Below are positions 6,605 to 56,896 of a stretch of DNA of 64,000 bases, piece after piece. This DNA is from Chara braunii (taxonomy: Eukaryota; Plantae; Charophyceae): NCBI GenBank assembly GCA_003427395.1, contig BFEA01000004.1:2586579-2650578 (forward strand), in the 5' to 3' direction. Both the position numbers and the translations under genes were made by a program. Position 1 is the stretch's first letter. Each line of letters opens with the position of its first letter. The notes beneath the pieces are model-generated. The model ran no database searches and was not told the origin of the DNA. It saw only the letters and a program-made list of their open reading frames with translations.

Positions 6605-8770
6605 TTGCGACATTGAGATTCAGACTCGACATATGAGCAGCGACATTGTGGGAGACTATTTTTGGGATCAGTATCGATGACATTTTGGTTGACATCTCCC
6701 CTTCTCTCCCCATTCGTCTCTCCTCCCTCCTCCTCATCCATGTATGATGGAACCTGGCGCTTCTTCTCTGTGTGATAGCGCCAGGTCTCCCCTCACACTG
6801 AGTGATGTTGATGAGGATGATGTTCAGTCTGTGTCATGACATTGATTGGGTCTGATTATTGGTATTTCAGTCTTCCGCTGTGCTATCCTCACTATATCTG
6901 AGAGAGGTCGGTTCTTGGTTCTGGTCGGCACCATATTGATATGTGACACAAAGACTGCTCAGAAAATGCACTTCTCAGAGTGGGACCTGTCATTATCATT
7001 GCAGCGGCTGGGTCAGGGTGTTGTGTAGGCCTGAATCTACTTGTACGTCTGAAAGAAGGTTGACTGCCTTTGTGCTGCCCTAGGTATCGGGGGTTATGCG
7101 GGGTATATATACTATATCGCACATTAAAAAGGAAACTATGATTTTGTTCATCAGATATGTCTTTATGTAGTCTTGCTTTTGCCGAACGAGATTTGAGCAG
7201 GCGAATGTACCTGGTCAGAGTGTTAGATACTTTGTACTGCTGTTTGTCTGAGAAATATGCAATAGACCGATGGTCTATTTGGTGTCCTATCTGGACTTGG
7301 GTTTTCGGTCTGGGCCTGTAGACATCAGTTAAGACAATTTGTGTGCAAATTGCTTTGTCCAGGAGCAACACGTCCAGCGTGAGAGTGGATGCCTGGTACT
7401 ATCCCTGATGTTCATCCTTTGGTTGGAAGGCTTTGTTGGGGTGTTTCAGACTGTAGTTTGTTTATTTGCAGTGTAAATTGGTTTTCCAAGCACGTGAGGC
7501 CCCTGTTTGTGGGCAAAGAATAACTACCATACTTTGGACATGTTGATCTCTGAACCTAACGACGCTTCGATTGATCTGAAGCTTACACATGTGGAATCCG
7601 GCTCACCCAGTTAGCGCAACCACACTACTGATGCCTACTCGCTATCCCCGTTCACGCCGTTCTGCGTGAACACGTTATTGATATGCGCTCACCATGCAGG
7701 CTGTACCCACAACACACACATATAATACTAACTGAAGAGATGGTAGGAGATTGGCATCAGGAGATGTATATGGTTGGATTGCCATCTGTATGAGTGTGTG
7801 GTGGTTGAGACCACATCGCTTGTAACGTATAAGGGGCAACCACTGGTTTGAGCTACGCTTTGTGTTATGTTACTTCCATCTGACCTTTGCTCAATTCGGT
7901 GTAGTAAACCAAATAAGCGGGAAGAGGCAGGGTAGTTCAAGCTATGTTATGGGTTGTGTTCGGGCGATTCTTGTCTGGGCTTCAGGTATGTTTGCATTTC
8001 TCTCCCCTGCTTGCCACATGCTCTGCACCCTCGTGTAGGAAGTATAGTCCCATGGGCAAGGAGGACAGAGTGAGGGGAAGGAAGAAGTCCACTTGCTGCT
8101 TGTTGTCGGGCATTTGACTTGTTGGCCTCTTGGGAATTTCAGCCGCCAGGCACCCAGAGTAAGTAATTGCCATGTTCATGGACGTTGTCTCATTGTTGGC
8201 ATGCTCACAGACATGATCTGATTGGTATGATCTTCAAGGACTCAACCATAAAAGATGGTCTTGTGTCAACAGGTGGAGAGTGCAATGAAGGCTGTGGCGG
8301 AGTCAGCGGAGTGCTTGAATGTAGGCCATCTGACGGCCCAGATAACAAATGTGTTGCACATGATCGATCAAGAATTGAGGGAGGCACCAACAAGGAGCAT
8401 CCTTCTGGACAAATTGCCCAGGGTAAGTTTGCAGGAAGCTGTCATTCAGTTTGTAGGTGTATAGGACTGAAGAGGGATCCTATTGCATACATATGTGAAA
8501 GTGTTTCTTCAGTCAAAGTTCAATGCAGCTTTTGTGAATAATGCTCGTCAATCAAGTTGATGAATGCTGTTGAGGTTGGGGGCGATCCTATGCCTCCCAT
8601 GTCCAGAACTTTGGACAGGCATTTTGAACTATTTTCCTCTTGTCAGCGGTTTTGTAGAGGCTCATAAACTGTAAGGAACTTCACGCTATGAAAAAGACAC
8701 GAGTCCAAAGTTGGAATTGACTTCATTCATTGTCCATGAACTCGTAAATAAGAAATAACACCTGTCAGGA

Positions 8771-9121
8771 ATTCACTTAATTCGCTGATGATCTTACTGT
8801 ACTTATCAGGGCTTCAAACCATGGTAACTGTCCGGACGTCCGGACCGGGTTCCAGACAGTCCGGTGTCCGGTGTCCGGTGTCTGGTCCTGATGTCTGGAT
8901 GGAGGCCCCTGGGGAGAAAAAAAGAAAAAAGAAAAAAAGAGGGCGGCCCAGACCGTTTATTGGGTCCTGGCCGCCCCTCAAAAAATAACAGGGTGATTTT
9001 GCAGTGCCATTTCTCCCCACCGGACAGGGCCTAGAGGTCCGGACACAAGACACTGCAGGTTTCTGGCGTGGCGAGTGTCACACAGGCCTGAGCAATTTCA
9101 AGGCGCCCGCCGCTGCTGCCT

Positions 9122-9173
<52 letters not shown>

Positions 9174-12100
9174 NNNNNNNNNNNNNNNNNNNNNNNNNNN
9201 NNNNNNNNNNNNNNNNNNNNNNNNNNNNNNNNNNNNNNNNNNNNNNNNNNNNNNNNNNNNNNNNNNNNNNNNNNNNNNNNNNNNNNNNNNNNNNNNNNNN
9301 NNNNNNNNNNNNNNNNNNNNNNNNNNNNNNNNNNNNNNNNNNNNNNNNNNNNNNNNNNNNNNNNNNNNNNNNNNNNNNNNNNNNNNNNNNNNNNNNNNNN
9401 NNNNNNNNNNNNNNNNNNNNNNNNNNNNNNNNNNNNNNNNNNNNNNNNNNNNNNNNNNNNNNNNNNNNNNNNNNNNNNNNNNNNNNNNNNNNNNNNNNNN
9501 NNNNNNNNNNNNNNNNNNNNNNNNNNNNNNNNNNNNNNNNNNNNNNNNTTTTTTGGGCCCGGACATTTGTGCACCCCTGGTACCGGTCCGGACTGTCCGG
9601 GTCCGGTGATGTCCGAGTGTCCGGTAATGTCCGGATCACCGGACAGTCTGGACCGGTCCAGACACTGGTCCGGAAGTGTCCGGTGTCCGGGTCCGGGGTT
9701 ACCATGCTTCAAACTCATATTTCCAGGCCCTGACAAGAGCAATGCAAGCAGTCCAACTAACCTCAGAAATGAAAGTTAACTGGTCCAAAACAGTAGAATG
9801 GTGGACCGCGGAAACTCCTCCCCCCATAGAGATAGCCCCGGCAGGACTACAATGGACAGATCCAGATTCACCAATTCGATTCCTAGGCATCAACCTCAAC
9901 CTTAAAGGATGCCACCATATATCGGCAACAACACTCTTGTCTTCAATGGTGAATAGAATGCACACCTGGAAAACCACACATATTCCCTACTAGGCAGAGT
10001 ACTAGCACTAAACAACTCCTTAACAATGATGTAGTATTCCACCTCCATTTGGTTCCCAGCCGCTGACTTTCAAAGTCGGCTGAGAGAAAAAGCAGCAGCA
10101 TTTCTATGGACAGGTAACACGGATCAGCCACGCTTTATCCACAAGGTATCATGGCAGATAGTAACCAGCCCAAAAAGCAAAGGGGGCCTAGGCCTTATAG
10201 ACCCATCCCGCCAAATCCAGGCTCTACAAATTAAATGGATTATAAGACTAGCCCTCCAGGACAATCTGCATTGGTCACCACTAGTCCTGAACCACATCAG
10301 AGAACTGGCACCATTTACTACTACAACGAACATGACAGGCCTTTTCTGGATTTTCAATAAATCCTGGCCGCTTCCAAAAGTGAAACAGACCCAATCCGAA
10401 CAAACACTCCAACAAAACAACAACGACACCCCCCAATCCAAATCCCTGTGGGAACAAATACTACACACCTGGAGAACCATCTTCCCCAAGAACAGAACAG
10501 GTCCAAAGAAACAAAGTCCTCAGGCAACCTCTCTTCTGCAACCCACACATCAAGAACTACAAAGGGGAAATCCTCCCACTCTCAAAGTCAGAACCTAAAT
10601 GGGGGCACTGGCTAGAAAAGGGAATTTGGCAAATCAAGCACATCTGGGACAACTCAAATAAAACATGGAAAACAAAAAGAGACCTACGAGAAAAACTGAA
10701 AGGAACACATCATCTTCAAACGAACGTAAATCACATTGTAGACTGTATTTCTCCACAATGGCGAGTCTTATTAAAAACAGACCAAAAATGGCATCACGGC
10801 GATTGGGCTACCACCACGAACCTCTTACCAATACAGGAAGTCCTCTCAGTCAGGAACTACGAACCCCACAACAACAGTTGGATATGCTGCGACATATACA
10901 CAGTAGAAGATCCAGGAAACCCGGTAAGTTACATCAATATCATAAGCAGAGCAGAAGGAGCATTAAAAACAACAACCTGAGAAGAATCAGAATCATAGAA
11001 GGAGAAAGAAAAAGACTCTACAAACCCCACATCAGCGTTTCTAATCTGGAGATCAACCCATCGGAATGGACATGGAAGTCCTCCTCTAGTTCCACCCTCA
11101 TTTCAAATCTAAGTAGGCTAACGGGCTACACACCCAAACTAGGTTATCGACTCCTCACTAAACCCATATGAATATCCAACACAGTACGCAGTAGGTGGAC
11201 AAAGGAGGAACCACAACTGGCCAACACCCATTTCAAACTCCCCTGGGCCACAATCTTCTCCCCAAGACCGGTCAAGCTTGCTAGCCTCAGATCGTTAATA
11301 GCCTTCAGAGCAGTCCCAGTAAACCAATGGTTAGCCAACAGAGGCAACCACGAAAACAGAACGGAACAGGACTTTTGGTGCAAGGTATGCAACCTCGTTT
11401 CCCCCGAATCCCTGAACCATTGTTTTATGGACTACCCAAATGCCAGATCCCTCTGGCAAAGTCTAGAAGCGGCATGGTATAAAATATCGGACTCTCCCCG
11501 CCTAATTAACCCCACCACACTATTCCTCGACCTCAAACAAACACCTCCACTCAAAGGCTTTGAAGCCTTCCTCTTCACAAATCAAGAAAAGTACCCTGTG
11601 GGCTCTCTGGAAAAACAGATGTGACTGCACCTTCAATGATCGACTCATCCCCTCAGAGAACCCACTCATCATCATCAAACAACTTATAGACACCGAAATC
11701 CAAGCCCTCTGGAAAAAACAACTCAACAAGTTCCCCACTGACCCCGACAAAAAAAGCGAAACAATCAAAAAGTTCTCTACCTTCAAGCTAGGGAATGGGA
11801 TGACAGACTAACTTTAAAAAATTGGCTGAACTTAACTCAGATAAAAAGCGATATGATACCTCCCCTATCCCACTTACAATCACCCCCAAACCAGTCACCC
11901 ATCTCTAATCCAATATCGAATCAGTAAGTTCACCCCCCGCTCCCATCCAACAACCTCACTCCAATCACTTCCCTCCCTTGCACCCAACCGACGCCCTCCA
12001 AACTACCTCTACCTCCAACATACCTCCATTTCCCCGCCCGCCCCCCCCTCCCCCCCCAAAAAAAATAAAAATAAAAATAAAAAATAAAAAAAAATCCCCC

Positions 12101-12602
12101 TGCCAATACCCACCACACCAAGCTTGTCCAAACCCCCACAACCCAACCATCCCCTAAACCCCAACACTGGCCCTCCTAAGAATACTCCCACCAAATCCAA
12201 TCAGTCCCCACACCTGGCACTTCCTTAGATCTCAGACCTGCCCTAGAAATCACATGTCTACCTTATGGAAACATCCACCAATGCCAGACTACAGACAAAT
12301 AAAAATTAAGCTAGACTTTAGGATTCTAGCACCAATATCAGGGTAAGATCTAAATCCGAGTTGAACAGGCTAACTTAGGCAGGGGTGAAGGATGGTACAT
12401 CCTTTCTAAGGGAAGTAATCAATGCGGTCCTTTGGTCCTCCACACCTTAAGCGGGAGGAGCGTGAGTAACTATTGTAATCCCTTCTGACTTGCCGGTGGA
12501 ATAGGAACCGGACTGATGCTCCCCAGAATGGACAAGGAGCCGGAACCATAAGGTCACGTTTGGAAAAAAAAAAAAGGGAAAAAAAAAGAATGAAAGAAAA
12601 AA
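8771..12602 (+). mobile_element. 5'-truncated, degenerate L1/Tx1-type LINE (ORF2 RT C-terminal half, CCHC finger, 3' UTR, A-rich tail)
   Basis: FADDLTVL at 8781, KVNWSKT..IRFLGI, KGGLGL, CKVC..H finger ~11380; A-rich tail; 21-bp TSD AAGAAATAACACCTGTCAGGA at 8750-8770 and 12603-12623. Confidence 0.9.
8820..9706. mobile_element. Non-autonomous hAT-type element nested in the LINE RT domain (contains an N gap)
   Basis: TIR CATGGTAAC/GTTACCATG, perfect 8-bp TSD CTTCAAAC (8812-8819, 9707-9714), GTCCGG subterminal repeats; removing it restores FADDLTVLIRASNSYFQAL. Confidence 0.9.
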
Positions 12603-12756
12603 AAGAAATAACACCTGTCAGGATCAGGCAAATAAGGGTGTGAAGCGCTGCCTCACCGACTCTGGCTTATTTATCTTTTCTTTTTTCTTCTGTAAATATA
12701 CTCTAATAAGTCAACTTGAGTTGGAGAGCTGTGTGATGGGCGACTATCTTCCACAG

Positions 12757-12772
12757 TTTGGAGAGCATGGAG
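12757..12772 (+). CDS. Candidate 16-nt microexon of the SAPS-family gene (LESME)
   Basis: TCTTCCACAG acceptor, GTAAGA donor, ends in phase 0, compatible with the next candidate exon. Confidence 0.3.
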
Positions 12773-12957
12773 GTAAGACGCGTGGAACTGGTTTGCATTC
12801 AGTCTGATCGTACAGTTCTTTTGTTTTTGTTTGATCATAGAGTCTTAAATTCTTAATAAAGCAGGATCAAATGTTTTGAGAGGTCTAAACCTCGATCTTG
12901 CCCTCATGTCACTGTTGTACTTTGAACATAATGGATATGTGCTGTACTGATATGCAG

Positions 12958-12990
12958 CCAGAAAGTGATTCACCACCTGAAAGCATTCAG
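12958..12990 (+). CDS. Candidate 33-nt exon of the SAPS-family gene (PESDSPPESIQ)
   Basis: TGCAG acceptor, GT donor, phase 0-0; resembles the PET-I segment preceding the next SAPS helix. Confidence 0.4.
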
Positions 12991-13027
12991 GTTTTTGTGT
13001 CAGATAAGGGAACCCAGTGCCAGGCAT

Positions 13028-13686
13028 CTTTTATTTCCAACGCGGACAGAGGTGCTTTGTGTCATGTATCTCTGGATTGGTTTGCGTTCTTGCACACTCG
13101 AACAGCCAACACATAGCTAGATTGTAATATTTCTTCGCCCTTCTTGCCTATTTCTATCTCATAGCAGACTCAAGCAGCCGATGCATAGCTAGATTGTAAT
13201 ATCTCTTCGCCGTTCTTTGGCTATGGTGTATCCTGCCAAAATCAACCTTTGAGCCCAGCGTCTTTTATTTCCAACGCGGACAGAGGTGCTTTGTGTCATG
13301 TATCTCTGGATTGGTTTGCGTTCTTCGCCCTTCTTGCCTATTTCTATCTCATGGCAGACTCAAACAGCCGATGCATAGCTAGATTGTAGTATCTCTTCGC
13401 TGTTCTTTGGCTATGGTGTATCCTGCCAAATTCAACCTTTGAGCCCGGCGTCTTTTATTTCCAACGAGGACAGAGGTGCATTGTGTCATGCATCTCTGGA
13501 TTGGTTTGCTGTTATTTCTATCTCATAGGACACTCGAACTGCCAACGCATAGCTAGATTGTAATATTTCTTCGCCCTTCTTGCCTATTTCTATCTCATAG
13601 CAGACTCAAACAGCCGATGCATAGCTAGATTGTAATATATCTTCGCCATTCTTTGGCTATGGTGGATCCTGCCAAATTCAACCTTT
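13028..13686. repeat. Three degenerate ~200-230 bp tandem units with internal sub-repeats
   Basis: TTTTATTTCCAACGCGGACAGAGGTGC at ~13029, ~13263 and ~13453; repeated CATAGCTAGATTGTA. Confidence 0.9.
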
Positions 13687-14419
13687 GCTCATGGGTTGAG
13701 GCCTCGCTATAGCAGGGAATGGCCTAAAGAAATAGTGAGCATCCAATGGCCAGTTTTCAACTAGGTTCAGGTGCCCCTCCAAAGTTTGTTTGAATCGAAG
13801 GGTTCTTTCAGTAGAACACATCTAGACTATATATTGTAGTAATGGCAAGTCTACCCGTCGCGGCTGCCGCCGAGGCACGGGGCGGTATTCTTCTTTCACG
13901 AGGTATGAGTACCTCACCTCCCCACTTCGTACCCCTCCTCCACATCTTTCTTCATTTTTCTCGTTTTGGCAATCAAAGTTTCCTTCATCTCAACATTTGA
14001 GGCCGGGCTCCCCCCCCACCTGCAGCATCTACGCCGCTAAGCAAAAGAAAAGAAAACAGGCCTTACCCAAAAAAAAGAATAGGTGCTCAGCTCTTATCCT
14101 GTCTGCTAGTCCAGTAGGTTTCATGCCTGAGCGGCTCCGAGTAGCCGGGTTCTTATCTCGTTGCCGTGAATGGCCTGAGGAGGATGGGCAAGGCCAGTCA
14201 GGTGTCGGATTCTTATCCCGCTGCTGTCAATGGCCTGAGCAGTATGGCCAAGGTCAGTCGACACCGGTAGCTTGCTGGGCTGAGTTGTGCTGCCCTGTAA
14301 CCCGTGGCAATGTGGGAGCGTCAGAGGCCAGGGGGAAGTGGCTGCTCAGGTCCTGCTGCGGCTGGTCGGGACACGCCCAATACAAAATTCTCAGGTTGAA
14401 TTCTCAGTCAGAATCATCA

Positions 14420-15736
14420 TAGATGACATTCATGGCTGGATTACGACGCCTATCAGGGTTGAGACCCTTAAGTCATGATACTTTAAGAGGCTTCAACTCT
14501 CAATATACCTGTCATAACAGAAGCTCAATAACCAATAATCATGAGATTCGTGACATAATCTCCCATTAAAAAAAAAAAGAAAAACGACCAGAAACAAGTA
14601 AACTGACATCCAGGACTACTCAGTCAAAATGGGGTATAAGCTATTGGGACCTATTCCTTAAGACTAAGGACCCGGAACCTGTAATCAGAAGTAGATGGTC
14701 AAAATTAATCGGACTAGAGGCAGACCCTATCTCACAAATCCCATGGAAGAAGTTCAAATCAATCAGACCTGTTAAAATTCGGAGTCTCCGATGGCTTATC
14801 GCATACGTGGCACTACCGGTCAACTAATGGCTCCACAAGCGAAGACGAAGGAGTGATCCTAACAGTTCGGACCTATGCACAGTCTGTTCAGATAACGAGC
14901 CAGAAGATATAATTCACTGCCTAATTCGCTGCAAGGAAGCTACAGAATATTGGGCCAGGGCCTCGGACCTCTGGAACTCCCTTTTCACATCACCCCTCCC
15001 TGAACATTCTATCCAACTTCTTCTCTGGACTAACATTCCTACTGATTTCAACAACGCTGAGAAGATATGGTATGGCAGCATCAGAAAAGTGACTCTCTGG
15101 TCGATCTGGAAGGAGAGATGCAGCAGAACCATCGAGGGACTATCAACTCCGAATGAAAAGGTTTGGGTGGAGACAAGGACTCTGATCCAGGCAGAGATCC
15201 TATGCAGATGGCACAAGATGAGACTCTCCATGCCTGAAGATGAAGATCGACAGTGCAGTATCATCTCCAGATTCGTCAAGGTCTGGCTGGTGGGGGGGGA
15301 AATAGCAGAGATAAGAGACTCCAACGTACGATGGAAAAATTGGCACAACTCGGAGACCAGCGGGAGAAGCTCAATATCTCACTCAATGGGGGCCCCACAA
15401 GATCCACAGGCTACATAAGGAATAACAACAACCTTCATTTTCATGTGGAAGCATTTTCTTTCCTTAGGTCTCCTAGCTGATTAAAGCCTATTTGACGGGT
15501 TTCCATTGGGGAATCTGAGTGGGAGTTCAGGGAAAGGCAAGCTGACAGTCAATCCTCCTATAAGGAGCAATCAATGCTGGTCAGGGTTCCTTCGGCCAGA
15601 AGGAAGGAAGCGTGAGCATGTTCTATGATGTATCAAGTTTTTGACTTGCCGGGGGGATGGGAGCCGGACTGACGCTCCCTAGAATGGATATGGAGCCAGG
15701 ACCATAAGGGCCTGTTTTATTTATATTAAAAAAAAA
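14420..15736 (+). mobile_element. 3' fragment of a second L1/Tx1-type LINE
   Basis: RPVKIRSLRWLIAYVALPVN..CTVC..HCLIRC zinc finger, LWSIWKERC, 3' tail similar to the first LINE, A tail. Confidence 0.85.
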
Positions 15737-15756
15737 TGTTGCAGGATTTATTTTAT

Positions 15757-15960
15757 TTTGTTTATCTGATTGGATCTGGATTCGAGCTCGGGTCTGTATT
15801 TCGACAGTTCATGAGTATACCAAATTACCAATTGAGCCAGGCCCGTTGGTGGGGTACGGTCAAATGTAAACGACACCAACGTGCGTAGCTCAGTTGGTAC
15901 ACTCATGAACTGTTGAAGTAAAGACATAAGGTCGAATCCAGACGGAATTGGTTAAACGAA
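15757..15960. repeat. Imperfect palindrome made of two divergent tRNA-like units
   Basis: Right arm TAGCTCAGTTGG...GGTCGAATCC; the left arm is its reverse complement (~85-90 bp arms). Confidence 0.75.
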
Positions 15961-16187
15961 TTTGTGAAGTCCGTTGGCCTGGTGACTTCCACAATGATAT
16001 CTCAAGGTCGTCACCCTTCTATTGAAACAACAAAATCGAACAGCGGGCTTTCTCTCCCTCTCTCCCCCCCCCCCCCTCCCCCTCTCTCTTTCTCTGTGTG
16101 TCTGTGTGCTTGAAGGGGTGAAGAGTTTCGTTCACGCTTGGCCAAAAAAGAAATAGGTACGTTGGTGCAGTGTGGCGAAGTGCATCG

Positions 16188-16262
<75 letters not shown>

Positions 16263-16832
16263 NNNNNNNNNNNNNNNNNNNNNNNNNNNNNNNNNNNNNN
16301 NNNNNNNNNNNNNNNNNNNNNNNNNNNNNNNNNNNNNNNNNNNNNNNNNNNNNNNNNNNNNNNNNNNNNNNNNNNNNNNNNNNNNNNNNNNNNNNNNNNN
16401 NNNNNNNNNNNNNNNNNNNNNNNNNNNNNNNNNNNNNNNNNNNNNNNNNNNNNNNNNNNNNNNNNNNNNNNNNNNNNNNNNNNNNNNNNNNNNNNNNNNN
16501 NNNNNNNNNNNNNNNNNNNNNNNNNNNNNNNNNNNNNNNNNNNNNNNNNNNNNNNNNNNNNNNNNNNNNNNNNNNNNNNNNNNNNNNNNNNNNNNNNNNN
16601 NNNNNNNNNNNNNNNNNNNNNNNNNNNNNNNNNNNNNNNNNNNNNNNNNNNNNNNNNNNNNNNNNNNNNNNNNNNNNNNNNNNNNNNNNNNNNNNNNNNN
16701 NNNNNNNNNNNNNNNNNNNNNNNNNNNNNNNNNNNNNNNNNNNNNNNNNNNNNNNNNNNNNNNNNNNNNNNNNNNNNNNNNNNNNNNNNNNNNNNNNNNN
16801 NNNNNNNNNNNNNNNNNNNNNNNNNNNNNNNN

Positions 16833-16920
16833 CCAGTGGTTTTGTCCGTCAAGAGGTGGAGAGTTCCATTCACACTTGGCCCGGAAATGAAATAGGTAGG
16901 CTGGGGTGGTGTGAAGAAGA

Positions 16921-17001
<81 letters not shown>

Positions 17002-17372
17002 CGGTTTAGGGACAGTTCTGTTCACACTTGGCCCAGTGGTTTTGTCCGTCAAGAGGTGGAGGGTTCGATTCACACTTGGCCCGGAAATGAAATAGGTAGG
17101 CTGGGGTGGTGTGAAGAAGAGGACCATCTCTCTCTCCCAGTGGTGTTGTGCTGGAAGAGATGGAGAGTTCCGTTCTAGCTTGGCCCAGCGGTGTTTTAAG
17201 TGAAGAGGTGGTGAGTTCCGTTCTCACTCAGCCCGGAAACAAAATAGGTAGGTTGGCGAGGCATGGAGAACTGCACCCTCTTTCTCTCTCTCAGTGGTGT
17301 TGTGCAGGAAGAGGTGTAGACTTCTGCTCAGACTCGGCCGAAGAACTCTCCACCTCTTCGTGCACAACACCG

Positions 17373-17375
<3 letters not shown>
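16833..17375. repeat. Degenerate repeat units interleaved with (CT)n/(CA)n, ending in a hairpin at 17292-17375
   Basis: CCAGTGGT...AAGAGGTGG...TTGGCCCGGAAATGAAATAGGTAGG repeated; inverted copy at the end. Confidence 0.8.
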
Positions 17376-17416
<41 letters not shown>

Positions 17417-18222
17417 TCTTAAGGTTGCTGAGGTGGTGAAATTCCTGAAAGGTCCAAAGTGCTTCCCCTTTTCGAGATCCTGGGAAGGGGTTCGGACCTT
17501 TCGGAGTCTTCACCACTTATGGAGGAGTGGGATCTGAAGATTCTGAAGGGTCCCGAAGTGGTGGACATCCTGAACGGTCTGAACGCCTTGAATACCTGAA
17601 CACCCACGAGGATGGGTTTCACGTTTTCAAGATCGTTGAGGATCCTTATCTCTGGTGTTGACAAGATTCTAGTAAGTTCTTAAGAATAGTGAAAGTCCTC
17701 TTCTTACTACTACAAGATTTACTACGGAAAATTTCATACCTGCATTGACCACTTGTGGGCGTCGGCCCTGCTGCCCACTTTGACATGCCCAGCTCGGTGA
17801 CTCTACTGGCATATCTTTAGAAGTTTAGAACTTTAGAGCAAGATTATGGTGTCACACTTCTTTTTTTTTTATAATTATTATGGTGTCACACTTACCTTGT
17901 ATATAATCGTGCAATTTACCACGACTTTCTGAACTCTTTCATCTGGGTTAAGTGAAGAGATTGTCCAGACGAGTCGCGCTACCAGAGGCCGATGCTACTG
18001 TTGAATGCGATGGCAGAAATACCAAACTGAATGTGCCCAGAGAATCAAAATGATGTGGAATAGTGGTTGTTCATTCTTCTCAGCGAAGAAGTCGTGTGAA
18101 CAAACTGTAGAATGGGGAATGTCAATGCCCAGACGGTTCTTGCTGACAAGGGGGCCAATTTTCCTGCTGCTTTGTGCTTTGTCCCTTGTTTGTTTGCTCT
18201 GTGGTTATTTGGTTGATTACAG

Positions 18223-18495
18223 GGTTTGGCTCTGACAACGGCAAACATTGAAAAGTTTGTGTCCGTACTGGATATGTCCCCACCTCCCAGGCTGATGCAG
18301 AATAAGGAGGTCATGCCTACAGCAGGACGGCATCGAATTGTAGTGATTGAATTGCTCAGTCGTTTAGTAATGTACTGTTCGCAAGAGATTGATCAGAAGA
18401 TTGTTCTCACAGGAGCAGTAAGGAAGGTTGTAGATCTTATGTTCAGCCATCCTCTCTGCAGCATTCTTCACGGACAAGCATCTCATTTCTTGGAG
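18223..18495 (+). CDS. Exon of SIT4 phosphatase-associated (SAPS/PPP6R, PP6 regulatory subunit) family protein
   Basis: PTAGRHRIVVIELL...GAVRKVVDLMFSHPLCSILH matches the SAPS PLGKHRLKIVE...LDLFFxYPxNNxLH block; AG/GT borders, phase 0-0. Confidence 0.85.
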
Positions 18496-18810
18496 GTAGG
18501 TGTTACTTTATTTTATTTCGTTTTTGGATCCTCGTATCCCTGCATTCGTGGAGCAAATGAATGGTCTGAAATTCTCTGAATTTGGTGGCAGGTGGTGTGT
18601 GTTGGTGAGAGTAAGCAATCAGCAAAAGGAGGTAGGGAACGTTGCCGCCCCCAGTCGTTAGGTGTCTCGCATCTACATGAAAGAACAATCTTCCAAATGC
18701 AGAAGACCGAAGCTGCCAGCTTGGATGTTTAATGGCGGAGGGGATGCATCCGTACACTGTCAGAAATCCCTGAAGTGAGAAATCAGCAATCTTGGCCGTC
18801 CGTGGTCCTC

Positions 18811-18961
18811 CTGGCCCGACGGTTCGGATTGTCGCGCAATCTTAAGACTTTCAGACTTTAAGATCACGCGATGATCCAGGCCGTCCGACAGGGTGGGTGG
18901 CCAGGATCGTCACGCGATCTTAAAGTCTTAAGATGGCGCAACAATCTGACCGTTGGGCCGG
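18811..18961. repeat. Long imperfect intronic hairpin (~65 bp arms)
   Basis: GGCCCGACGGT...ATCTTAAGACT...GATCC and its reverse complement GGATC...AGTCTTAAGAT...ACCGTTGGGCC. Confidence 0.8.
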
Positions 18962-19367
18962 GCGTCGATCCGGATCAACGCACCAGTCGGGAAGAGGGCC
19001 TGAGGGCCTGTACAGGCCTGTAGGTAGTTTAAAAAAGCAGGTAGTGAGAAAAAAAAATTGCAGGGCCTTATGCCCGGTGCCTTTGGGCATTGGCCCATTG
19101 CAGGGTGGCCCTCAGCGTATCATCTGCTCCGCCAGCCACTAGGCCTGAAGCAAAACCGTTTCCCCTTTCTCCTGCTCAGCCCTTGGTGGCGCAGCGGTGC
19201 TCTTTAGGGTAGTCAACAACGCACACTCGCATGCACGCACACACACACTCAGGCACCCGCACACACGCGTATCCACACACGCATGGACACACTCAGATGC
19301 AACCTTGTGACTGGAGTTGTGTATACCGGACATGACATGACATACACGCACGCAAATGCATCTTGGG

Positions 19368-19424
19368 CAGACTGTCGGGGTTCAACCTCCTGATGAGTCG
19401 GTGAAAATCCGATGAAACAGTCTG
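19368..19424 (+). ncRNA. Type III hammerhead ribozyme (intronic, sense to the SAPS pre-mRNA)
   Basis: CAGACUG-UC^GGGG-UUCAA-CCUC-CUGAUGA-GUCGG-UGAAAAU-CCGAU-GAAA-CAGUCUG; complete core and three stems; cleavage predicted after 19376. Confidence 0.88.
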
Positions 19425-19547
19425 GCACAGTCATGCTTCCTTTTGTGGAGTTGCACACAGCGAACATGACAATGCAGGCATGCACGGCGAACATGACAAC
19501 ACACCAGGTGTGNNNNNNNNNNNNNNNNNNNNNNNNNNNNNNNNNNN

Positions 19548-19618
<71 letters not shown>

Positions 19619-20426
19619 GATCGGCCAGTTGCGTCCACCATAAATGCATCACCCCTCGCAACAGGTCATCTAGTAGGAAATAACCTACTCTAAGAGGCGC
19701 CCAATTCAACAATGTTGATCTTCTGGAACACCTTACTTGTCTACCTTCACCCCACACCCAGATGCTGGGAGTAGGAGCCTTTGTTGGCTGCAAAAAGGCG
19801 GAAATGGAAATCCCTATCGATCTTTGGACGTTTGACCTTTTGTGTGCTGTTTGAAGTTTAACAATTGTTGCAGATATAATGTGTGAGCTTGGGAACATTG
19901 CCCGGTTCAACAATTTGCCAATTCACGTGCCTTTGTTTGCTGGGATCTTTCTTGGAACGGGATGCATGGCTTGTGGCGTGTAACCACAGCTGATGTCGAT
20001 GCTGGACTGGACCTGGATGGCTGGTAGGAGAGCATAGGGATGAAGGCGGTTCCTGTGGGTGGCTTCTTATCGTTGTGGGGATCGTTAGTGTCATCTGTAT
20101 TTAAGATTCAACTTTGTGTGTTGTCTATGGTTCTCCTACCATCTCCAAATATGCTGGCCGATAGATCAATGTGGCTGTTTTCGGTGTATTCCTTTGGGCA
20201 ACAATATGCTTTTTATCCTTCTCAATATTTTCCACTTGAGAGTCTGTCATTGGAACAACGAGAACAATTACGAGCCTTCCAGATGGTCGCTGTCTATGGG
20301 CCCTTTTATCTCATTGAGCCTATACATCGTTTCCCTGCAGGCCTTGGGTACAACAGTTGCTTATATCCTTTTTTTTTTTGGTTATCGTATTTTTGATGTA
20401 CGTTTGTTTCCAAAACTGCATTGCAG

Positions 20427-20551
20427 GGAGTACTCACTCGACCAAACTCGTCTCTTTGCTCACATGTACTTGAGGGAGCTGAAGGCCTTCCAACACAACT
20501 TGCCAAGGCAGGGCGAGAGTGCGCGGCCATGCGGATTGGAAAGCGCCCAGG
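20427..20551 (+). CDS. SAPS-family exon (GVLTRPNSSLCSHVLE...KRP)
   Basis: TTGCAG acceptor, GTAAGG donor, phase 0-2; splices to give KRPGYCGH (SAPS RxGYxGH motif). Confidence 0.8.
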
Positions 20552-21365
20552 GTAAGGATGTGGAAAAACCTTTGTTGCTGAAGAAATGTTGTGCGAGCCC
20601 ATCCAGGTGCGATACTATTGTCAATATCACACAATAGCCATAACAACACTACCAATGGTTGTGATAATGGATAACTGTCCTGCCAGAACTCCCTTCTTGG
20701 GTACACACTTGTGTTGAACTCCTTGACTTGCGACACTCCGCTCCTTCCCATCTCGCCTACCTTTACTGCTCGTATATTATACTAGTGGGAGATTCTTTAA
20801 CTGCTGCAAGAGAGCTACTTTGGCAGCAACCAGGGGTGTAATGTGCAGATTATTGGGTGCTGCTACCCAGTTACAGCGTTTTTGCACACATCAAATTTGG
20901 AGAGTTGATTTCGTGTGTCTTGTGCTCTTTGCTGAAAGGCGGTGCAGTTGTTATCTTCGTCTGATATCGTCAATGAAAACCTGCTTTCTGAGTGAAAGAA
21001 ACAGTAGTTGTCGGATGGACAGCTGTGTTCGCTGCAATACGTAATAGTTATTTACTTTTCTGTAAGAAAAAGAGATTCTTGTCGCTGTGGTGTAGTAGTG
21101 GATGAGAGGAAAGTCATTTGCAATCTGAAGAATTGGGAAATTCTCGCTGATACGGATCACTGCTAAATAGGGCGATATGATCATGTTGTGAGGCAATTTG
21201 TCTCTCTCTTTCTTTGTATATGTGTGTTTCTACCGGATGGGTACGGAAGAGACTGTCCTGCGAAGAATGCTGTTCACTGAACTAAAACTCTGACCGTGCT
21301 GCACTTCGTTTTCTGTCGTGTTATATGTGTGGCTCCCTTCGTCCATGTGATGCTCTGATGCACAG

Positions 21366-21435
21366 ATATTGTGGGCACGTTGTCGTACTTTGTAGAACCC
21401 TCGAGAATGTGGCTGACATCAACAGTAATGTCAGG
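21366..21435 (+). CDS. SAPS-family exon (YCGHVVVLCRTLENVADINSNVR)
   Basis: CACAG acceptor, GTATGT donor, phase 2-0; completes the GYxGH motif. Confidence 0.8.
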
Positions 21436-22376
21436 GTATGTATGCCTCAAGTTATACCTATCAAGAATTTCAAACCCCGCTCTTGGTGAACGCTTGGCCT
21501 TCGCAACTTCTGTTTTGTTATGCGGATTTCTTCGTACGAAAAGTTAATGTCATCTCTTTGCAGTACTCGGTTCTGGAGCAAATTTAGGGATGTGGTTCTT
21601 CTCTGCAGAACTCGGTGCTGGAGTACTCGTGGTTTTTGACTAAGATGACGCATGCACACAGTAAAGCGGAGCAGATAACACAGGGAATGACTGCATGCTT
21701 CTGCTGTGTGCTGTGGCATGTGAGTAGCCGGTGTCTGGCCTGCGCTGGAATGCCATTAGGCTGTCGTTCAAAGATCGTACACTGATTTGCTACCTTTGAA
21801 CATTGCTAGAGGGGCCAGCTCCTCACAGGAAGGACCACCACCTGATACCTCGTCAGAGCTTTACCGCTGACTTCGCACTTATGGATGAGTGTTGTGCTCA
21901 CCATTTGTAGTCCAGTTTCTACATCCACCCTTTTGTAGTGCGGCGTGTAGCTCCGTCGGTTCACGCTTGAACTGTTGAAATGCAGACCTTAGCTCAAACT
22001 TCACTGGAAGGAGATAAGTAAAATACTACAATTCTGAATTACCTTGGGACGGTCAGTTCAATGACCATACTGTCACCCTTTTGGAAAAGGAGTACGGTGT
22101 GCCCATGGTGTTGAAAAGGATTTCGTTATACCGGAGAATATAACTCCGCGCGATTAACTGTGGACCTGGTTATGGGAAGCGCAGAGTGAGTTCATGTTGG
22201 GTTCAACCAGTTATTGGCCAGGAGGCGTGTGGAAGATCGAGAACTCCAAGAGTGTGATGGGTGTTAGTAATGGAGGGCGTAGTACTCACTACACTTCTTG
22301 GTGCTGTATCATTGCTGAGATGCTGACTGGCAGTTGTGTCTGTGTGTTGTGCTGTTGTGATGGCCTGGGACTTCAG

Positions 22377-22562
22377 GGCATATTAGAGAAGAATGAAGAT
22401 TGGTTGCGGTTCACGGCACCAGGTGGTGCACTTGGGAAGCTTGTCAAGGAGCAGTTTGGAGGCCTCGGCGGGCCGAAACCGCAGTTTCCCATGAGCTGTC
22501 TCTTTGATGGGGGCAGTGCGCAGGCTGCTGTGGATCACTTGCGTGCACTATTTCTCGGATGA
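22377..22562 (+). CDS. Probable last coding exon of the SAPS-family gene
   Basis: TTCAG acceptor; GILEKNEDWLRF...LGGPKP resembles the end of the SAPS domain; TGA stop. Confidence 0.75.
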   Translation, partial: GILEKNEDWLRFTAPGGALGKLVKEQFGGLGGPKPQFPMSCLFDGGSAQAAVDHLRALFLG

Positions 22563-25823: not shown

Positions 25824-26697
25824 ACACCTGTGATTTCATGCCGTGCTTCGTTATCCGGTGGCCCATCAAGCCCCGCTGCATGTGTTGGACTTCTCCTTTG
25901 AGAGGAGACCAGGAGACCACCGCAACACACCTGTGATTTCATGTCTTGCTTCGTTATCCGGTGGCCCATCAAGCCCCGCTGCATGTGTTGGACTTCTCCT
26001 TTGAGAGGAGACCAGGAGACCACCGCAACACACCTGTGATTTCATGTCTTGCTTCGCTATCCGGTGGCCCATCAAGCCCCGCTGCATGTGTTGGACTTCT
26101 CCTTTGAGAGGAGACCAGGAGACCACCGCAACATACCTGTGATTTCATGTCTTGCTTCGCTATCCGGTGGCCCATCAAGCCCCGCTGCATGTGTTGGACT
26201 TCTCCTTTGAGAGGAGACCAGGAGACCACCGCAACACACCTGTGATTTCATGTCTTGCTTCGCTATCCGGTGGCCCATCAAGCCCCGCTGCATGTGTTGG
26301 ACTTCTCCTTTGAGAGGAGACCAGGAGACCACCGCAACACACCTGTGATTTCATGTCTTGCTTCGCTATCCGGTGGCCCATCAAGCCCCGCTGCATGTGT
26401 TGGACTTCTCCTTTGAGAGGAGACCAGGAGACCACCGCAACACACCTGTGATTTCATGTCTTGCTTCGCTATCCGGTGGCCCATCAAGCCCCGCTGCATG
26501 TGTTGGACTTCTCCTTTGAGAGGAGACCAGGAGACCACCGCAACACACCTGTGATTTCATGTCTTGCTTCGCTATCCGGTGGCCCATCAAGCCCCGCTGC
26601 ATGTGTTGGACTTCTCCTTTGAGAGGAGACCAGGAGACCACCGCAACAAACCTGTGATTTCATGTCTTGCTTCGCTATCCGGTGGCCCATCAAGCCC
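25824..26697. repeat. 103-bp tandem repeat, ~8.5 near-identical copies, cut off by an adapter
   Basis: ACACCTGTGATTTCATG...GAGACCACCGCAAC recurs every 103 bp. Confidence 0.95.
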
Positions 26698-26735
26698 CTG
26701 TCTCTTATACACATCTAGATGTGTATAAGAGACAG
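26698..26735. other. Nextera mate-pair junction adapter (assembly artifact)
   Basis: Exact CTGTCTCTTATACACATCT+AGATGTGTATAAGAGACAG (two inverted Tn5 mosaic ends). Confidence 0.98.
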
Positions 26736-29700
26736 GGGAAAAGGAGGTTATGGCGGAGGAGGAGGGAAGAGGAGGTTATGGAGGGAGAGGGAGAAGGGAG
26801 GATGGAGGTTGTGGCAGTAGAGGGACGAGGGAGGATGGAGGCTATGGCGGTGGAGAGGGGGGGAGTCTATGGCCGAGGGAGCCAATGGAGAGGGAAGAGG
26901 AGGAGGGAGGTTGTGACGGAGGAGGGATGGGCACATTTATGTATCTGGATGGAGGAGGGAGACCATGTGGCAGGAGGAGGGGCGGGAGGGAGGGAGGCTC
27001 TGGCGGATGAGGAGGGAGGGAGACTGATGGAGGAGGAGAAGGCAGGAGGGAGACTATGGCAGAGGAAAGGAGCCTGATGTGGAGGACGAGAGAGGGAGCT
27101 ATGGCGGAGGAAGGAGAGAGGGAGACTATGTGGAGGGAGGTTTACTGATGGAGTAGGATGGGGGCGAGAGGGAGACTGATGTGGAAGGAGGAGATGGTGG
27201 AAGAAGGAGAGGGCGACTATGTGGAGGGAGGAAAGACTGATGGAGGAGCAACAAGAAAAAGAGCAAGACAAAGTAGAAGAAGAAACGAAAAGAAGAAAAA
27301 GAACTGAAGAGACTAAGAATAAGAGGATTGACGCAGATCGACGGCCAAGGTACAAAAAAAAAAAAGAAGCCATGAAACAGGGCCTACCAGGCCCCGAAAA
27401 ATTTTGCGGCCGCCGCCTAATTTTTTTTCCCCCTTTGGGCCGTAAACCTGCGGTGCCAATTTTTTTTTTTTTGAGGTTTTTGGGGGGTGGCGCTGAGGGT
27501 GCCCGGGTGCCTGCCCGAGGGGGTCGCCTGGCCGGGCGCCCTGGGCGCCCTTCCGGGCGACCTGGGGGTCCTGGGCGCCCAGGCTGGAAAGCTAGGCATA
27601 TACCCTGTATCAATGGTTTTTTTTTAAGCTTCTTTTATTCAAACCACGACTTCCTCGAAGCCTCCTTTTGCCGATTCAGATTCAGAGTCACACCGCGCGC
27701 CAATGGGTGCCGAAGCGCCACCGCAGCGTTTTTGTTTTTTTTGGCCCGCGCCGCCAGCCTTTGTGGTTCGGTATCCCCAAGGCCCCAAAGATATGTTGTT
27801 TTTTTGAAACACACACGCTCCTCCTATTATGGGGGGCACCAGTCCAACTACTGTTCCCAAGTAAGCACAAAATTTACATGGTATACATGACACTGAGATG
27901 ACAAGGAAAGCAGGATGGGTGGTCACCAGCCACTGGGAGACTCCCTTCGGTACCCATTCATCACAAGCCTGCACAACTGCCTCCCCCTCTTCCTCCTGCA
28001 AAGAACCCCCCTCCCCCCCTCCCCAACCTCCTGCGAGGCGGGGACCTGGGTGGCATTGTGAGTAGGTGAGTGGGAAAAATAACTGAAGGGAGGAAACTCT
28101 ATATTCTCTGTCCATCAATGGACCAGGAGAATGTCTCTCCTCCTTTGGAGGGATTGAACAGGGGCCCTTCGCCCTTCGTTGAAGATAGATCGATATTGGA
28201 CTATATGTTGTCCACAATTCAGGCATTACCTGGCAACGGGAAAAAGGGAGATTGTTATTCTGTTGCTTGACATGGAGAAGGCCTCAATAAGGTAGGTTGG
28301 AGCGGAAGGTTGGGAGGGAGGGAGTCTCGTAAGGAATAAGGACCTCTAAAGACCAGTTGGATATCCGATGGCCAACAAAAAAAAACGAAAATAGAATATT
28401 TTGAAATTTTCTGCCCATCCCGGGGACCGCCAATATCCGGTAGGGGGAACCTTCCAGAAGCACGTGGTTAACTCGGAGGTGCACGCAGGATAGATGGATG
28501 GGGTACTGGTCGTTGCAAGGGGGACTAACAATTAGTGTCCTCCCTTAGGGGATTCTGCAGACTGTCAAAGCTTCATCCTTCCCACGGGTCATCGAAAGTC
28601 CGACGGAACAGTCAGGCACTTAACCCTAGTTGCGTATGCTTCTTTTTTCTTTTTCTTAGTTGCTTCAACGCGTTTGTGCTTTCCGCTCTCCGAAGTTAGA
28701 CCAGTCATACCTTGGGAAATCTGTGAACCAGCAAAATATATTTCGCCTGCGAGCTCTCGGCGAGAATATTTGGATGCCATGAGTGCACATAGGCAAAGTC
28801 CAGATTGCACACGCTATAGCGTTCAGTAGTAGTGGGTCCTATTTGCAGGATGCAGGTGAGGATCCACGACTTCGCAGCCTCCAGTATTCCAGTATTGTTT
28901 TGGCGGGATGTTGTGCGGATGTTTGCTTTGTACGACGGTGCTGCTGCAGCTTGCAAAGTATTTTGTTGTTGGTGATGACCAAATTCTTTGCCGGTAAGCA
29001 GATGGGGTAATCCAGTCAAGATGGACAAAGAGAAAGACGGACAAACGGAAGAAAACTGATGTACCTGCGCCTTTTTTTTTGTAACTGCTGAGAGGATCTC
29101 ACACCTTCAAGCTTTCCTTCAATTTCTCCATGCTCAGAATGAAAGGAATTCCCTGCCCATTCTCGACGACCAGGTTTTTTTTTTTTTTTTTCAGAAACGA
29201 AAAGAAAGAAAAAACTCCTGTCCATGTGCTTTCCTCGATGTGATTACAACCCGACTTCAGCGCTCATGTTCACAAAAACAAACAATAAGGGCACGTATAC
29301 TGGCGCTGGCACTTCGTTAATTGTATCTAACGGCAATTGCGACCTCACCGCGATGCATCTGACCGCAATCACATCCAGAGCTCAGTGTGAAAATTCCTAG
29401 TGTGGGTAGACCCTGCTCATCTCCTCCATTGCAGTGTGGGCATTTCGTCAGTGGCAGATGATTGCTAATGAGTTTGTTTATCTGGATTATGAACCCTTGG
29501 ACTCGTTTGAGATGCAAATGAGATTTTTTGTTCGGCATCGTCAGTGATTGAGGAACGTGCTATCGCTCAAGACTAGCATTGTAAGTTGTTGTGTTGCCAA
29601 AGTGTGCCATAAGGTTCTTGACGACGAGCTCATCTTGCACTGCGTTTTCGTCAAGCTCTCAATGAAAGGCTCATCTTGATCTGCTTCTCATGCAACTTTT

Positions 29701-33313: not shown

Positions 33314-33437
33314 TTCCTACCCATCTATCCTGGTCGCCTATTCTTTTCTTTTCTTTTCTTTTTTTTCTTTTTTTTTTGGAGCGTGATTTTTCGTGGTTGC
33401 CGAGATAAAGTAGCAGGACGGGTGCCCCCCAGAATAG

Positions 33438-33502
<65 letters not shown>

Positions 33503-33593
33503 CCTACCTATCTATCCTGGTCGCCTATTCTTTTCTTTCCGTTTTCTTTTTTTCGGAGCGTGATTTTTCGTGCTTGGTGAGATAAAGTAGCAG

Positions 33594-33651
<58 letters not shown>

Positions 33652-33797
33652 CCAACCCATCTATCCAGGTCGCCTATTCTTTTCTTTCGGTTTTTTTTCT
33701 TTTTCGGAGCATGATTTTTCGTGTTTGGCGAGATAAAGCAGCAGGACGGGTACCCCCCAGAATCGATGGGGTTGTGCGTGTGTGTGTGTGTGTGTGA
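33314..33797. repeat. Three ~110 bp units separated by (GT)n
   Basis: CCATCTATCCTGGTCGCCTATTC...GAGATAAAGTAGCAGGACG x3. Confidence 0.9.
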
Positions 33798-44571: not shown

Positions 44572-44747
44572 GAAGTCTCTTAAAATTTGGAATTATGATT
44601 TTTTAAGATTTTAATACCAATGTTTTTAGAAGTTACTCTTTATTTCACTCCTTTCATTTATACTTTTAATGTGATTGCTATAATATATACTTCCTTAACT
44701 ATATTAAGACAAATCAATTTGAAAAAAATTATTGCGTATTTTTCAGT
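44572..44747 (+). pseudogene. nad4: NUMT: nad4 fragment
   Basis: IPMFLEVTLYFTPFIYTFNVIAIIYTSLTILRQINLKKIIAYFSV. Confidence 0.92.
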
Positions 44748-46704: not shown

Positions 46705-46770
46705 AGATTAGCATGGCCCCTGCGCAAGGATGACACGCATAAATCGAGAAATAGTCCAAATTTTTTTTTT
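46705..46770 (+). ncRNA. U6: 3' half of U6 snRNA (AGC triad, ISL, 3' tail, oligo-T) lacking the 5' stem and ACAGAGA box
   Basis: AGATTAGCATGGCCCCTGCGCAAGGATGACACGCATAAATCGAGAAATAGTCCAAATTTT, essentially plant U6 from ~nt 43 on. Confidence 0.95.
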
Positions 46771-47135: not shown

Positions 47136-47196
47136 GGCAGGCTGTTTCGTTGGAGTTTCACCAACTCATCAGGAGGCTGAACCTCGACAGTCAGCC
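47136..47196 (-). ncRNA. Type III hammerhead ribozyme, tandem copy A
   Basis: Reverse complement GACUG-UC^GAGG-UUCAG-CCUC-CUGAUGA-GUUGG-UGAAACU-CCAAC-GAAA-CAG. Confidence 0.88.
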
Positions 47197-47280
47197 TCTA
47201 CGCCTGTATCCGACGCCAATAATGACCAGGTACAGGCGCGCGCGAGAGAGAAGAGTTGGAGAGAGAGGGGGTAAGGGACA

Positions 47281-47345
47281 GTGGCAAGCTGTTTCGTCGG
47301 ATTCTCACCGACTCATCAGGAGGTTGGACCTCGACAATCTACCAC
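47281..47345 (-). ncRNA. Type III hammerhead ribozyme, tandem copy B
   Basis: Reverse complement GUGGUAGAUUG-UC^GAGG-UCCAA-CCUC-CUGAUGA-GUCGG-UGAGAAU-CCGAC-GAAA-CAGCUUGCCAC. Confidence 0.9.
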
Positions 47346-47382
47346 TGCGCCCGAATCGGGCGCTGGAAGTGGCCAGACTCAG

Positions 47383-47446
<64 letters not shown>

Positions 47447-56882: not shown

Positions 56883-56896
56883 GAGATGGATACATT

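What the first reader, a model, noticed from the sequence alone, without database searches (positions are those of the whole stretch)
19368..19424. Sense-strand hammerhead in an intron of the SAPS/PP6-regulator gene
Seen: a full type III hammerhead with a perfect stem III lies on the pre-mRNA strand between exons 18223-18495 and 20427-20551. The stem II closing pair is G-U instead of G-C. Inference: it could cut the nascent transcript and affect splicing or expression; the wobble may be an attenuating change.
Basis: partly seen in the sequence, partly recalled or inferred. Interest (0 to 1): 0.7.

Follow-up and report, generated by a model that had tools for sequence, protein, structure and literature searches.

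The report
Decayed repeat-family hammerhead in algal intron
The self-cutting 'hammerhead' RNA motif is really there, on the coding strand of an intron that is spliced out normally, but it is one worn copy of a very abundant repeat family in the alga Chara braunii, is predicted to misfold, and is unlikely to regulate its host gene.

Summary
Observation confirmed: a type III hammerhead at 19368-19424 (+) passes the Rfam cut-off, with an 8-bp stem III, cut site 19376/19377 and a G10.1-U11.1 pair. RNA reads join exon end 18495 to 20427, so it lies on the sense strand of a real intron. The host is Chara braunii CBR_g38425, an LRR plus half-SAPS protein, not the canonical PP6 regulator.

The regulatory reading is poorly supported. 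Three more copies lie in the window, and DNA depth over the motif is thousands of times single-copy. About 86% of that depth has G-C, so the U is a CpG-type change that about 7-21 copies share exactly. A second change, A to G at 19378, together with the U drops the predicted active fold from 57% to 2%. The intron is spliced out efficiently.

What is left of interest is the family: type III hammerheads in short (138-147 nt) tandem units among microsatellites, unlike the published Chara Penelope hammerheads. I found no description of it in print. The scan met the same family before on other DNA (e1-10594704).

The parts
19368..19424 (+). Type III hammerhead motif: stem III 19368-19375/19417-19424, stem I 19377-19381/19385-19389 (G-U at 19378/19388), core 19390-19396 and 19414-19416, stem II 19397-19401/19409-19413 (G-U closing pair), loop 2 19402-19408
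19376..19377 (+). Predicted self-cleavage site (after GUC); no pile-up of read ends seen here
   Evidence: sequence; table 6
19413..19413 (+). U11.1; the family has C (86% of DNA depth), which lies in a CpG
19378..19378 (+). G where the two intact sibling copies and the loose-end consensus have A; makes a stem I wobble and lets the 5' arm pair with the 3' arm of stem II
   Evidence: (table 7)
19288..19362 (+). Diverged earlier copy of the spacer that follows the hammerhead, giving about 1.5 tandem units of about 138 nt; preceded by CA-rich DNA (19222-19290)
   Evidence: score 51; shuffles mean 30.6, sd 4.7, max 49 of 500
19426..19495 (+). Spacer after the hammerhead (subfamily-specific, far lower depth than the motif); followed by a 35-N gap and (GA)33
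18223..18495 (+). Host exon upstream of the motif (aa 391-481 of CBR_g38425)
20427..20551 (+). Host exon downstream of the motif, spliced to 18495
8273..8422 (+). Host exon spliced to 18223 (19 and 21 reads)
21366..21435 (+). Host exon (mapped by protein identity only)
22377..22562 (+). Last coding exon of the host gene (mapped by protein identity only)
47286..47340 (-). Sibling hammerhead with G10.1-C11.1, first of a 147-nt tandem pair beside (GA)n
47139..47193 (-). Sibling hammerhead with G10.1-C11.1 and one compensatory change in stem II
28553..28620 (+). Fourth copy with a destroyed core; its 5' flank matches the commonest family flank seen in reads

Best explanation
This motif is one decayed copy of a very abundant hammerhead-bearing repeat family that likely landed in this intron by retrotransposition, is predicted to misfold, and so likely cuts too slowly to disturb splicing, which proceeds normally. 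Shown: high copy number, a family consensus of G-C, two departures from the family in this copy, a partial tandem layout of about 138 nt among microsatellites, and efficient splicing across the site. Inferred: intact family copies cut tandem transcripts into 140-150 nt monomers, as non-LTR retrozymes do; a Penelope-like reverse transcriptase is the likeliest mover (about 55%); the U arose by methyl-CpG deamination; and selection merely tolerates weak copies on the sense strand of introns rather than tuning them.
For: Copy number: summed DNA depth is 348,738 and 547,772 in the two bins over the motif against 9.36 for single-copy DNA, and 5,521 contigs were laid on the 1.4-kb stretch. The tool warns that summed contig depth is not a copy number, and overlapping short contigs inflate it, so I read it as thousands to tens of thousands of copies. 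The window holds 4 copies in 62 kb. Allele: C at 19413 in 631,445 of 730,115 depth units; both intact siblings have C; single exact contigs carrying the T have depth 95-133 against single-copy 6.3-14.2, that is 7-21 copies. Folding: the probability of the active secondary fold is 0.024 native, 0.14 with the family C, 0.33 with the family A at 19378, and 0.57 with both (37 C; at 22 C 0.012 and 0.46). Splicing: 21 and 29 junction reads, with intron depth at most about 4 at 99% identity and on both strands. Layout: 147-nt dimer at 47136-47416; joints that go from the spacer back to a motif start in other genomic copies (table 5). Slow intronic ribozymes do not affect splicing while fast ones do (Fong 2009 as cited in PMC10274809, passage); the 3' splice site lies about 1,050 nt from the cut.
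Against: No cleavage assay was done. The catalytic core is fully intact, and natural hammerheads can tolerate even U10.1-U11.1 (PMC3088659, passage), so G-U need not kill it. Nearest-neighbour folding ignores loop-loop contacts and co-transcriptional order, and it also scores the two G-C siblings low in context (0.005 and about 0), so it is a weak predictor. Oligo-dT RNA cannot show cut or aborted nascent transcripts, so spliced reads do not exclude loss of some transcripts. No parent element was found: the family does not match the published Chara Penelope consensus sequences. The 147-nt monomer is not more structured than shuffles as a circle (z = -0.5). Strand bias across the genome could not be tested (no genome held).
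Confidence: 0.8

Rival explanations
1. Unselected leak: the copy is a passenger, but keeps enough activity to cut a fraction of nascent transcripts and lower host expression somewhat.
For: All core positions are consensus, loop 2 matches the Rfam consensus, and 10.1-11.1 mismatches can be active. Fast intronic ribozymes reduce splicing in mammalian reporters.
Against: The predicted active fraction is about 2%. The window before the 3' splice site is short: about 1 kb, or 15-20 s at the mammalian rates quoted. No end pile-up and normal junction reads.
Confidence: 0.12
2. Domesticated intronic ribozyme: the wobble was selected to tune cutting of the pre-mRNA and so set expression of the host gene, as proposed for CPEB3 and the amniote intronic hammerheads.
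For: Sense orientation in a proven intron of an expressed gene whose family is conserved across green plants; perfect stem III and intact core.
Against: Very high copy number; the U is a common CpG-type change shared with other copies; a second lesion; the motif sits in a partial tandem among microsatellites in a repeat-filled intron. With this many copies, sense-strand intronic ones are expected by chance.
Confidence: 0.04
3. Remnant of a plant-type LTR retrozyme (solo LTR) moved by Ty3-gypsy elements.
For: Type III topology is the one reported for plant LTR retrozymes (PMC4918200, passages), and a gypsy element lies in the window.
Against: Copies share only about 60-67 nt, not a 300-400 bp LTR, and depth falls several hundred-fold just outside the motif. 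Spacing is 138-147 nt, not 600-1000. tRNA-Met PBS-like matches are at chance level, 4 against 4.26.
Confidence: 0.04

Closest known systems
Non-LTR retrozymes of animals (Cervera and de la Pena 2020, PMC7229834, passages; bioRxiv 10.64898/2026.07.22.740005, passages)
   Same: Non-coding short tandem units, each with a hammerhead; no LTR or PBS; very high copy numbers are known; proposed to be moved by Penelope-like elements; the preprint reports depletion from introns.
   Different: Those carry type I hammerheads and are mostly metazoan. Here the motif is a full type III in a charophyte alga, the units (138-147 nt) sit at or below the low end of the reported range, and no circular RNA is shown.
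Plant LTR retrozymes (Cervera, Urbina and de la Pena 2016, PMC4918200; passages, section 10, supplement search)
   Same: Type III hammerhead with a canonical loop 2, in a green-lineage genome.
   Different: No 300-400 bp LTR, PBS or 600-1000 nt spacing here. The passages I saw give tens to a little over 150 motifs per genome. Chara does not occur in the 12 supplementary files searched.
Hammerheads of Chara braunii Penelope-like elements Chlamys-2/-3/-5_cBra and PLE-X1_cBra (Craig et al. 2021, PMC8557442; passages, supplement rows, part 47)
   Same: Same genome; (CT)n and (CA)n insertion preference like the flanks here; partial tandems; Chlamys-2 and -5 have a similar stem I sequence.
   Different: Those are type I motifs, mostly with a minimal stem III, and have different stem II sequences. 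10 short probes from this family found no matching hammerhead in the supplement (70-letter line breaks can hide a probe).
Intronic ribozymes proposed as regulators: mammalian CPEB3 HDV-like ribozyme and amniote intronic hammerheads (PMC10274809 and PMC6765202, passages)
   Same: Sense-strand self-cleaving motif in an intron.
   Different: Those are few-copy and conserved between species; this is a high-copy repeat with decay marks.

Membership tests
Type III hammerhead (RF00008) | Conserved core C3-A9, G12-A14, A15.1-U16.1, H17, and three stems with stem III open | tested here: met
Type III hammerhead (RF00008) | Score at or above the Rfam gathering threshold | tested here: met
   49.1 against 48.5 bits
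Type III hammerhead (RF00008) | G10.1-C11.1 pair (highly conserved, not invariant) | tested here: not met
   G-U here; family 86% C; conservation
Type III hammerhead (RF00008) | Loop 1-loop 2 tertiary contact | tested here: inconclusive
   Loop 2 matches the Rfam consensus letters; no 3D model made
Type III hammerhead (RF00008) | Self-cleavage | not testable with these tools
   No end pile-up in oligo-dT reads, which is uninformative
Non-LTR retrozyme | Short tandem units, each with a hammerhead | tested here: met
   147-nt dimer; about 1.5 units of about 138 nt at the focal site; go-back joints in DNA
Non-LTR retrozyme | Type I hammerhead | tested here: not met
   Type III in all three intact copies
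Non-LTR retrozyme | Monomeric circular RNA | tested here: inconclusive
   Go-back joints occur in DNA contigs as well as in putative RNA contigs; the RNA libraries are oligo-dT
Plant LTR retrozyme | Hammerhead inside a 300-400 bp LTR, pairs 600-1000 nt apart | tested here: not met
Plant LTR retrozyme | tRNA-Met PBS | tested here: not met
   4 two-mismatch hits against 4.26 expected (motif recalled)
Plant LTR retrozyme | PPT and 4-bp target duplication | not tested
   The right boundary lies in an assembly gap (19513-19547)
Chara Penelope-like pLTR hammerhead | Sequence match to a published consensus | tested here: not met
Chara Penelope-like pLTR hammerhead | Linkage to a Penelope-type RT gene | tested here: inconclusive
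   None beside the 4 window copies (30 of 171 ORFs scanned); the genome is not held
Chara Penelope-like pLTR hammerhead | Insertion at (CA)n or (CT)n microsatellites | tested here: met
   Focal copy and 47-kb pair are flanked by CA-rich and (GA)n tracts, but such tracts are common in this window
Domesticated intronic ribozyme | Low copy number | tested here: not met
Domesticated intronic ribozyme | Conserved at the orthologous site in related species | not testable with these tools
   No related algal genomes held
Canonical SAPS/PP6 regulatory subunit (host gene) | Full SAPS domain above the Pfam cut-off | tested here: not met
   19.6 against 25.6 bits; best stretch covers profile positions 318-437 of 451; N-terminal LRR
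Canonical SAPS/PP6 regulatory subunit (host gene) | SAPS-like fold in the C-terminal half | tested here: met
   Atlas feature score 0.97, TM 0.76 to a PP6R3-like model; 6 of 12 relatives pass the cut-off

The most novel reading that the evidence does not exclude
Chara braunii carries an undescribed retrozyme class: tens of thousands of full type III hammerheads in short non-LTR tandem units, which cut themselves into about 140-nt RNA circles and are moved by Penelope-like elements. Because Chara's long introns absorb these inserts, selection would keep only crippled copies on the sense strand, giving a genome-wide natural experiment on whether intron cleavage blocks splicing.
Probability: 0.3. 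Interest if true: 0.6.

Novelty: new variant of a known kind. Interest (0 to 1): 0.3.

Why it matters
The single copy matters little: it is a worn repeat in a normally spliced intron. The family matters more. In the papers I read, type III hammerheads go with LTR retrozymes and type I with short tandem or Penelope repeats; this family crosses that line, at a far higher copy number than those papers report for plants. With thousands of intronic copies in both orientations, comparing intact and damaged alleles by strand would test whether self-cleavage inside introns is selected against in a close relative of land plants.

Tried and rejected
Whole-genome search: no genome is held, so strand bias and the parent element could not be tested.
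Metagenome scans with two family patterns: 0 hits each.
Viral scan: 4 contigs share only the core and stem II, not the type III layout; treated as a common stem II sequence, not kinship.
Run search: no listed holder is on record as RNA; I laid 7 distinct runs of the 24 listed, reading about 6-13% of each raw-read run.
Read-end pile-ups at 19376/19377: none; uninformative for oligo-dT libraries.
Sense/antisense ratio of family reads: 0.67 and 1.13 upstream of the cut against 1.7-2.0 downstream. This fits cleavage, but different subfamilies cover the two positions, so I do not use it as evidence.
Match to Craig et al. consensus sequences: none (one of 59 supplement parts read whole).
Circular folding of the 147-nt monomer: not above shuffles.
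Word-index protein search with the C-terminal half found only the protein itself; the HMMER search found the family.
Scan look-ups by sequence and by nearby place: nothing.
Literature searches for a description of this family: searches gave only Craig et al. for Chara. Subscription journals and bioRxiv supplements are not covered, so 'undescribed' is provisional.

Full report
1. Observation. The motif is real. Rfam RF00008 matches 19369-19423 (+) at 49.1 bits (cut-off 48.5; E=8.8e-08). The core pattern gives 4 matches at 3 loci against 0.46 expected, and no shuffle of 100 reaches 4. The base list shows an 8-bp Watson-Crick stem III, a GUC triplet with the cut after C19376, a complete core, and G19397-U19413 closing stem II.

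2. Host gene. The exon 18223-18495 is 100% identical to part of P0001, which its source names Chara braunii CBR_g38425. Residues 340-607 map letter for letter to five exons, at 8273-8422, 18223-18495, 20427-20551, 21366-21435 and 22377-22562. Residues 1-339 did not map in the window. At 99% identity, reads leaving the exon end continue with the start of the 20427 exon (21 reads in X22, 29 in X23, one contig in X6), and 19 and 21 reads join the 8422 exon end to 18223. Exon depth is about 17-52. Just inside the intron it is 0.65 and 0, and nowhere in the laid part above about 4, with reads on both strands. So the exon chain spans the motif, the motif is on the sense strand, and poly(A) RNA is spliced. 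The protein is not the canonical PP6 regulator. It has an LRR and a sub-threshold match to the C-terminal part of SAPS, a SAPS-like predicted fold, and full-length relatives of 450-600 aa. Of 10 relatives looked up, 8 are named, from Spirogloea, Calypogeia, Physcomitrium, Cryptomeria, Chlamydomonas, Myrmecia, Chlorokybus and Scenedesmus; 6 of 12 scanned pass the SAPS cut-off.

3. The motif is a repeat. The window holds two more intact-core copies as a 147-nt tandem on the minus strand (47286-47340 and 47139-47193), and a fourth with a destroyed core at 28553-28620. At 80% identity, DNA contigs of run X1 give summed depth 348,738 and 547,772 over the motif, against 9.36 on single-copy DNA; 5,521 contigs were laid on the stretch. 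The raw ratio (37,000-106,000) overstates the copy number, because short overlapping contigs are summed and the tool warns against reading it as one. Two other loci in 62 kb give 4-116 per Mb (95% interval). With a genome of about 1.5-2 Gb (recalled), thousands to tens of thousands of copies is a fair reading. Depth drops to about 1,500 and 490 in the bins just outside the motif, and loose ends show several different flanks, so the hammerhead is the shared module of many subfamilies. The family is transcribed from other loci: 94% of the laid RNA reads in X21 and X22 run on into unlike sequence, on both strands.

4. The wobble. At 19413, 631,445 of 730,115 DNA depth units have C (86%), and RNA shows 84-88% C. 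Both intact siblings have C. That C precedes a G, so the change is CpG to TpG; the window is CpG-depleted (observed/expected 0.67). That methylation caused it is inference. Single contigs that match this copy exactly across the T have depth 95-133, or about 7-21 copies, and those across G19378 about 19-82 copies. Neither letter is private to this gene. Together they let the 5' arm pair with the 3' arm of stem II, and the predicted best fold becomes one long hairpin. The active secondary fold has probability 0.024 native, 0.14 with the family C, 0.33 with the family A, and 0.57 with both. Against over-reading this: the same method scores the siblings low too (0.005 and about 0 in context), tertiary contacts are ignored, and Perreault et al. 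report natural hammerheads with even a U-U at 10.1-11.1 (PMC3088659, passage).

5. Anatomy of the element. The 70 nt after the motif are repeated, diverged, just before it (19288-19362; score 51, shuffles mean 30.6, max 49 of 500). This makes about 1.5 units of about 138 nt between a CA-rich tract and a 35-N gap followed by (GA)33. DNA contigs from other loci show joints from the spacer back to the motif. There is no shared 300-400 bp LTR, and PBS-like matches are at chance level. This layout resembles animal non-LTR retrozymes (PMC7229834, passages), which a 2026 preprint derives from Penelope-like elements and finds depleted in introns (passages), but those have type I motifs. Chara's published Penelope-like families prefer (CT)n and (CA)n targets and carry hammerheads, but these are type I with different sequences (PMC8557442, passages and supplement rows). 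10 probes and a listing of all 8 core matches found none of this family; part 47 of 59 was read whole. The parent is therefore unidentified, and a Penelope-type mover is my inference at about 55%.

6. Mechanism for this copy. Fast ribozymes in introns abort splicing and slow ones do not (Fong et al. 2009, not read; as cited in PMC10274809). The cut site lies about 1,050 nt before the 3' splice site (the gap makes this approximate), so only a fast ribozyme would matter. A copy with two destabilising changes likely falls in the slow class, which fits the normal splicing. The RNA data are oligo-dT and cannot show cut nascent RNA; no read-end pile-up was seen.

7. Novelty. Five literature searches gave only Craig et al. 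for hammerheads in Chara, and Chara is absent from the 12 supplementary files of the plant retrozyme paper. Subscription journals and preprint supplements were not covered. An earlier scan note on another piece of this genome (e1-10594704) describes what appears to be the same abundant family; it is an unreviewed AI note and not independent support. Another note (e1-9892394) reports a Penelope-like element with a type III motif in a different genome. I checked that lead against the published Chara consensus sequences and found no match.

8. Verdict. The copy is ordinary; the family is a new variant of known hammerhead-bearing repeats. Interest 0.3.

Noticed in passing
window 8273-22562 (+), host gene: The host belongs to an unnamed green-lineage family: an LRR fused to the C-terminal half of a SAPS domain, from chlorophytes to a conifer. 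UniRef labels the Chlamydomonas member (CHLRE_12g486550v5) 'Flagellar associated protein'.
   Followed up: partly
window 19376 (family reads, table 7): Loose-end consensus across the cut site has U at position 17 in both RNA runs but C in the DNA run. This could mean that intact copies are cut and lost, or reflect clipping bias and a few highly expressed loci; strands are pooled.
   Followed up: no
window 19386 (family reads, table 7): 212 and 436 RNA reads have a TA-repeat just before the 3' strand of stem I (agreement 0.48): a truncated copy in a (TA)n tract, or a subfamily with a TA-repeat extension of stem I.
   Followed up: no
window 18790-18962: Palindromic repeat of about 170 bp in the same intron, with DNA depth about 900-1,400 against 9.4; MITE-like.
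   Followed up: partly
window 16048-17415: A second family of about 152-nt tandem units interleaved with (TC)n and (TG)n in the upstream intron; folds stably on the + strand; no Rfam hit and no hammerhead core.
   Followed up: partly
window 33314-33819: Three diverged units of about 150-190 nt, each ending in (TG)n.
   Followed up: no
window 26695-26738: Perfect 44-bp palindrome ending a 103-nt x 8.5 tandem array; from recall it is a mate-pair library junction adapter, so an assembly artefact.
   Followed up: no
window 46704-46765 (+): 3' part of U6 snRNA followed by a T run, about 370 bp from the hammerhead pair; likely a retrocopy.
   Followed up: no
window 51816-56900 (+): Decayed gypsy-like LTR retrotransposon (gag, protease and RT hits), followed by two tRNA-like sequences at 56897-57060.
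   Followed up: partly
window 12724-12803, 44599-44985, 45440-45531, 58949-59150: Organelle-like fragments: weak group II and group I intron hits and an NADH dehydrogenase membrane domain hit.
   Followed up: no
window 9628-11800 and 27900-28320: LINE-like fragments (zf-RVT hit at 11172-11621; RT-like motif near 28260, recognised from recall).
   Followed up: partly
L001-L004, 2001-2029: Four viral contigs carry hammerhead cores with the same stem II sequence as this family but different stems I and III.
   Followed up: partly
window 18264: Run X5 has T instead of C in the exon, suggesting a second strain.
   Followed up: no
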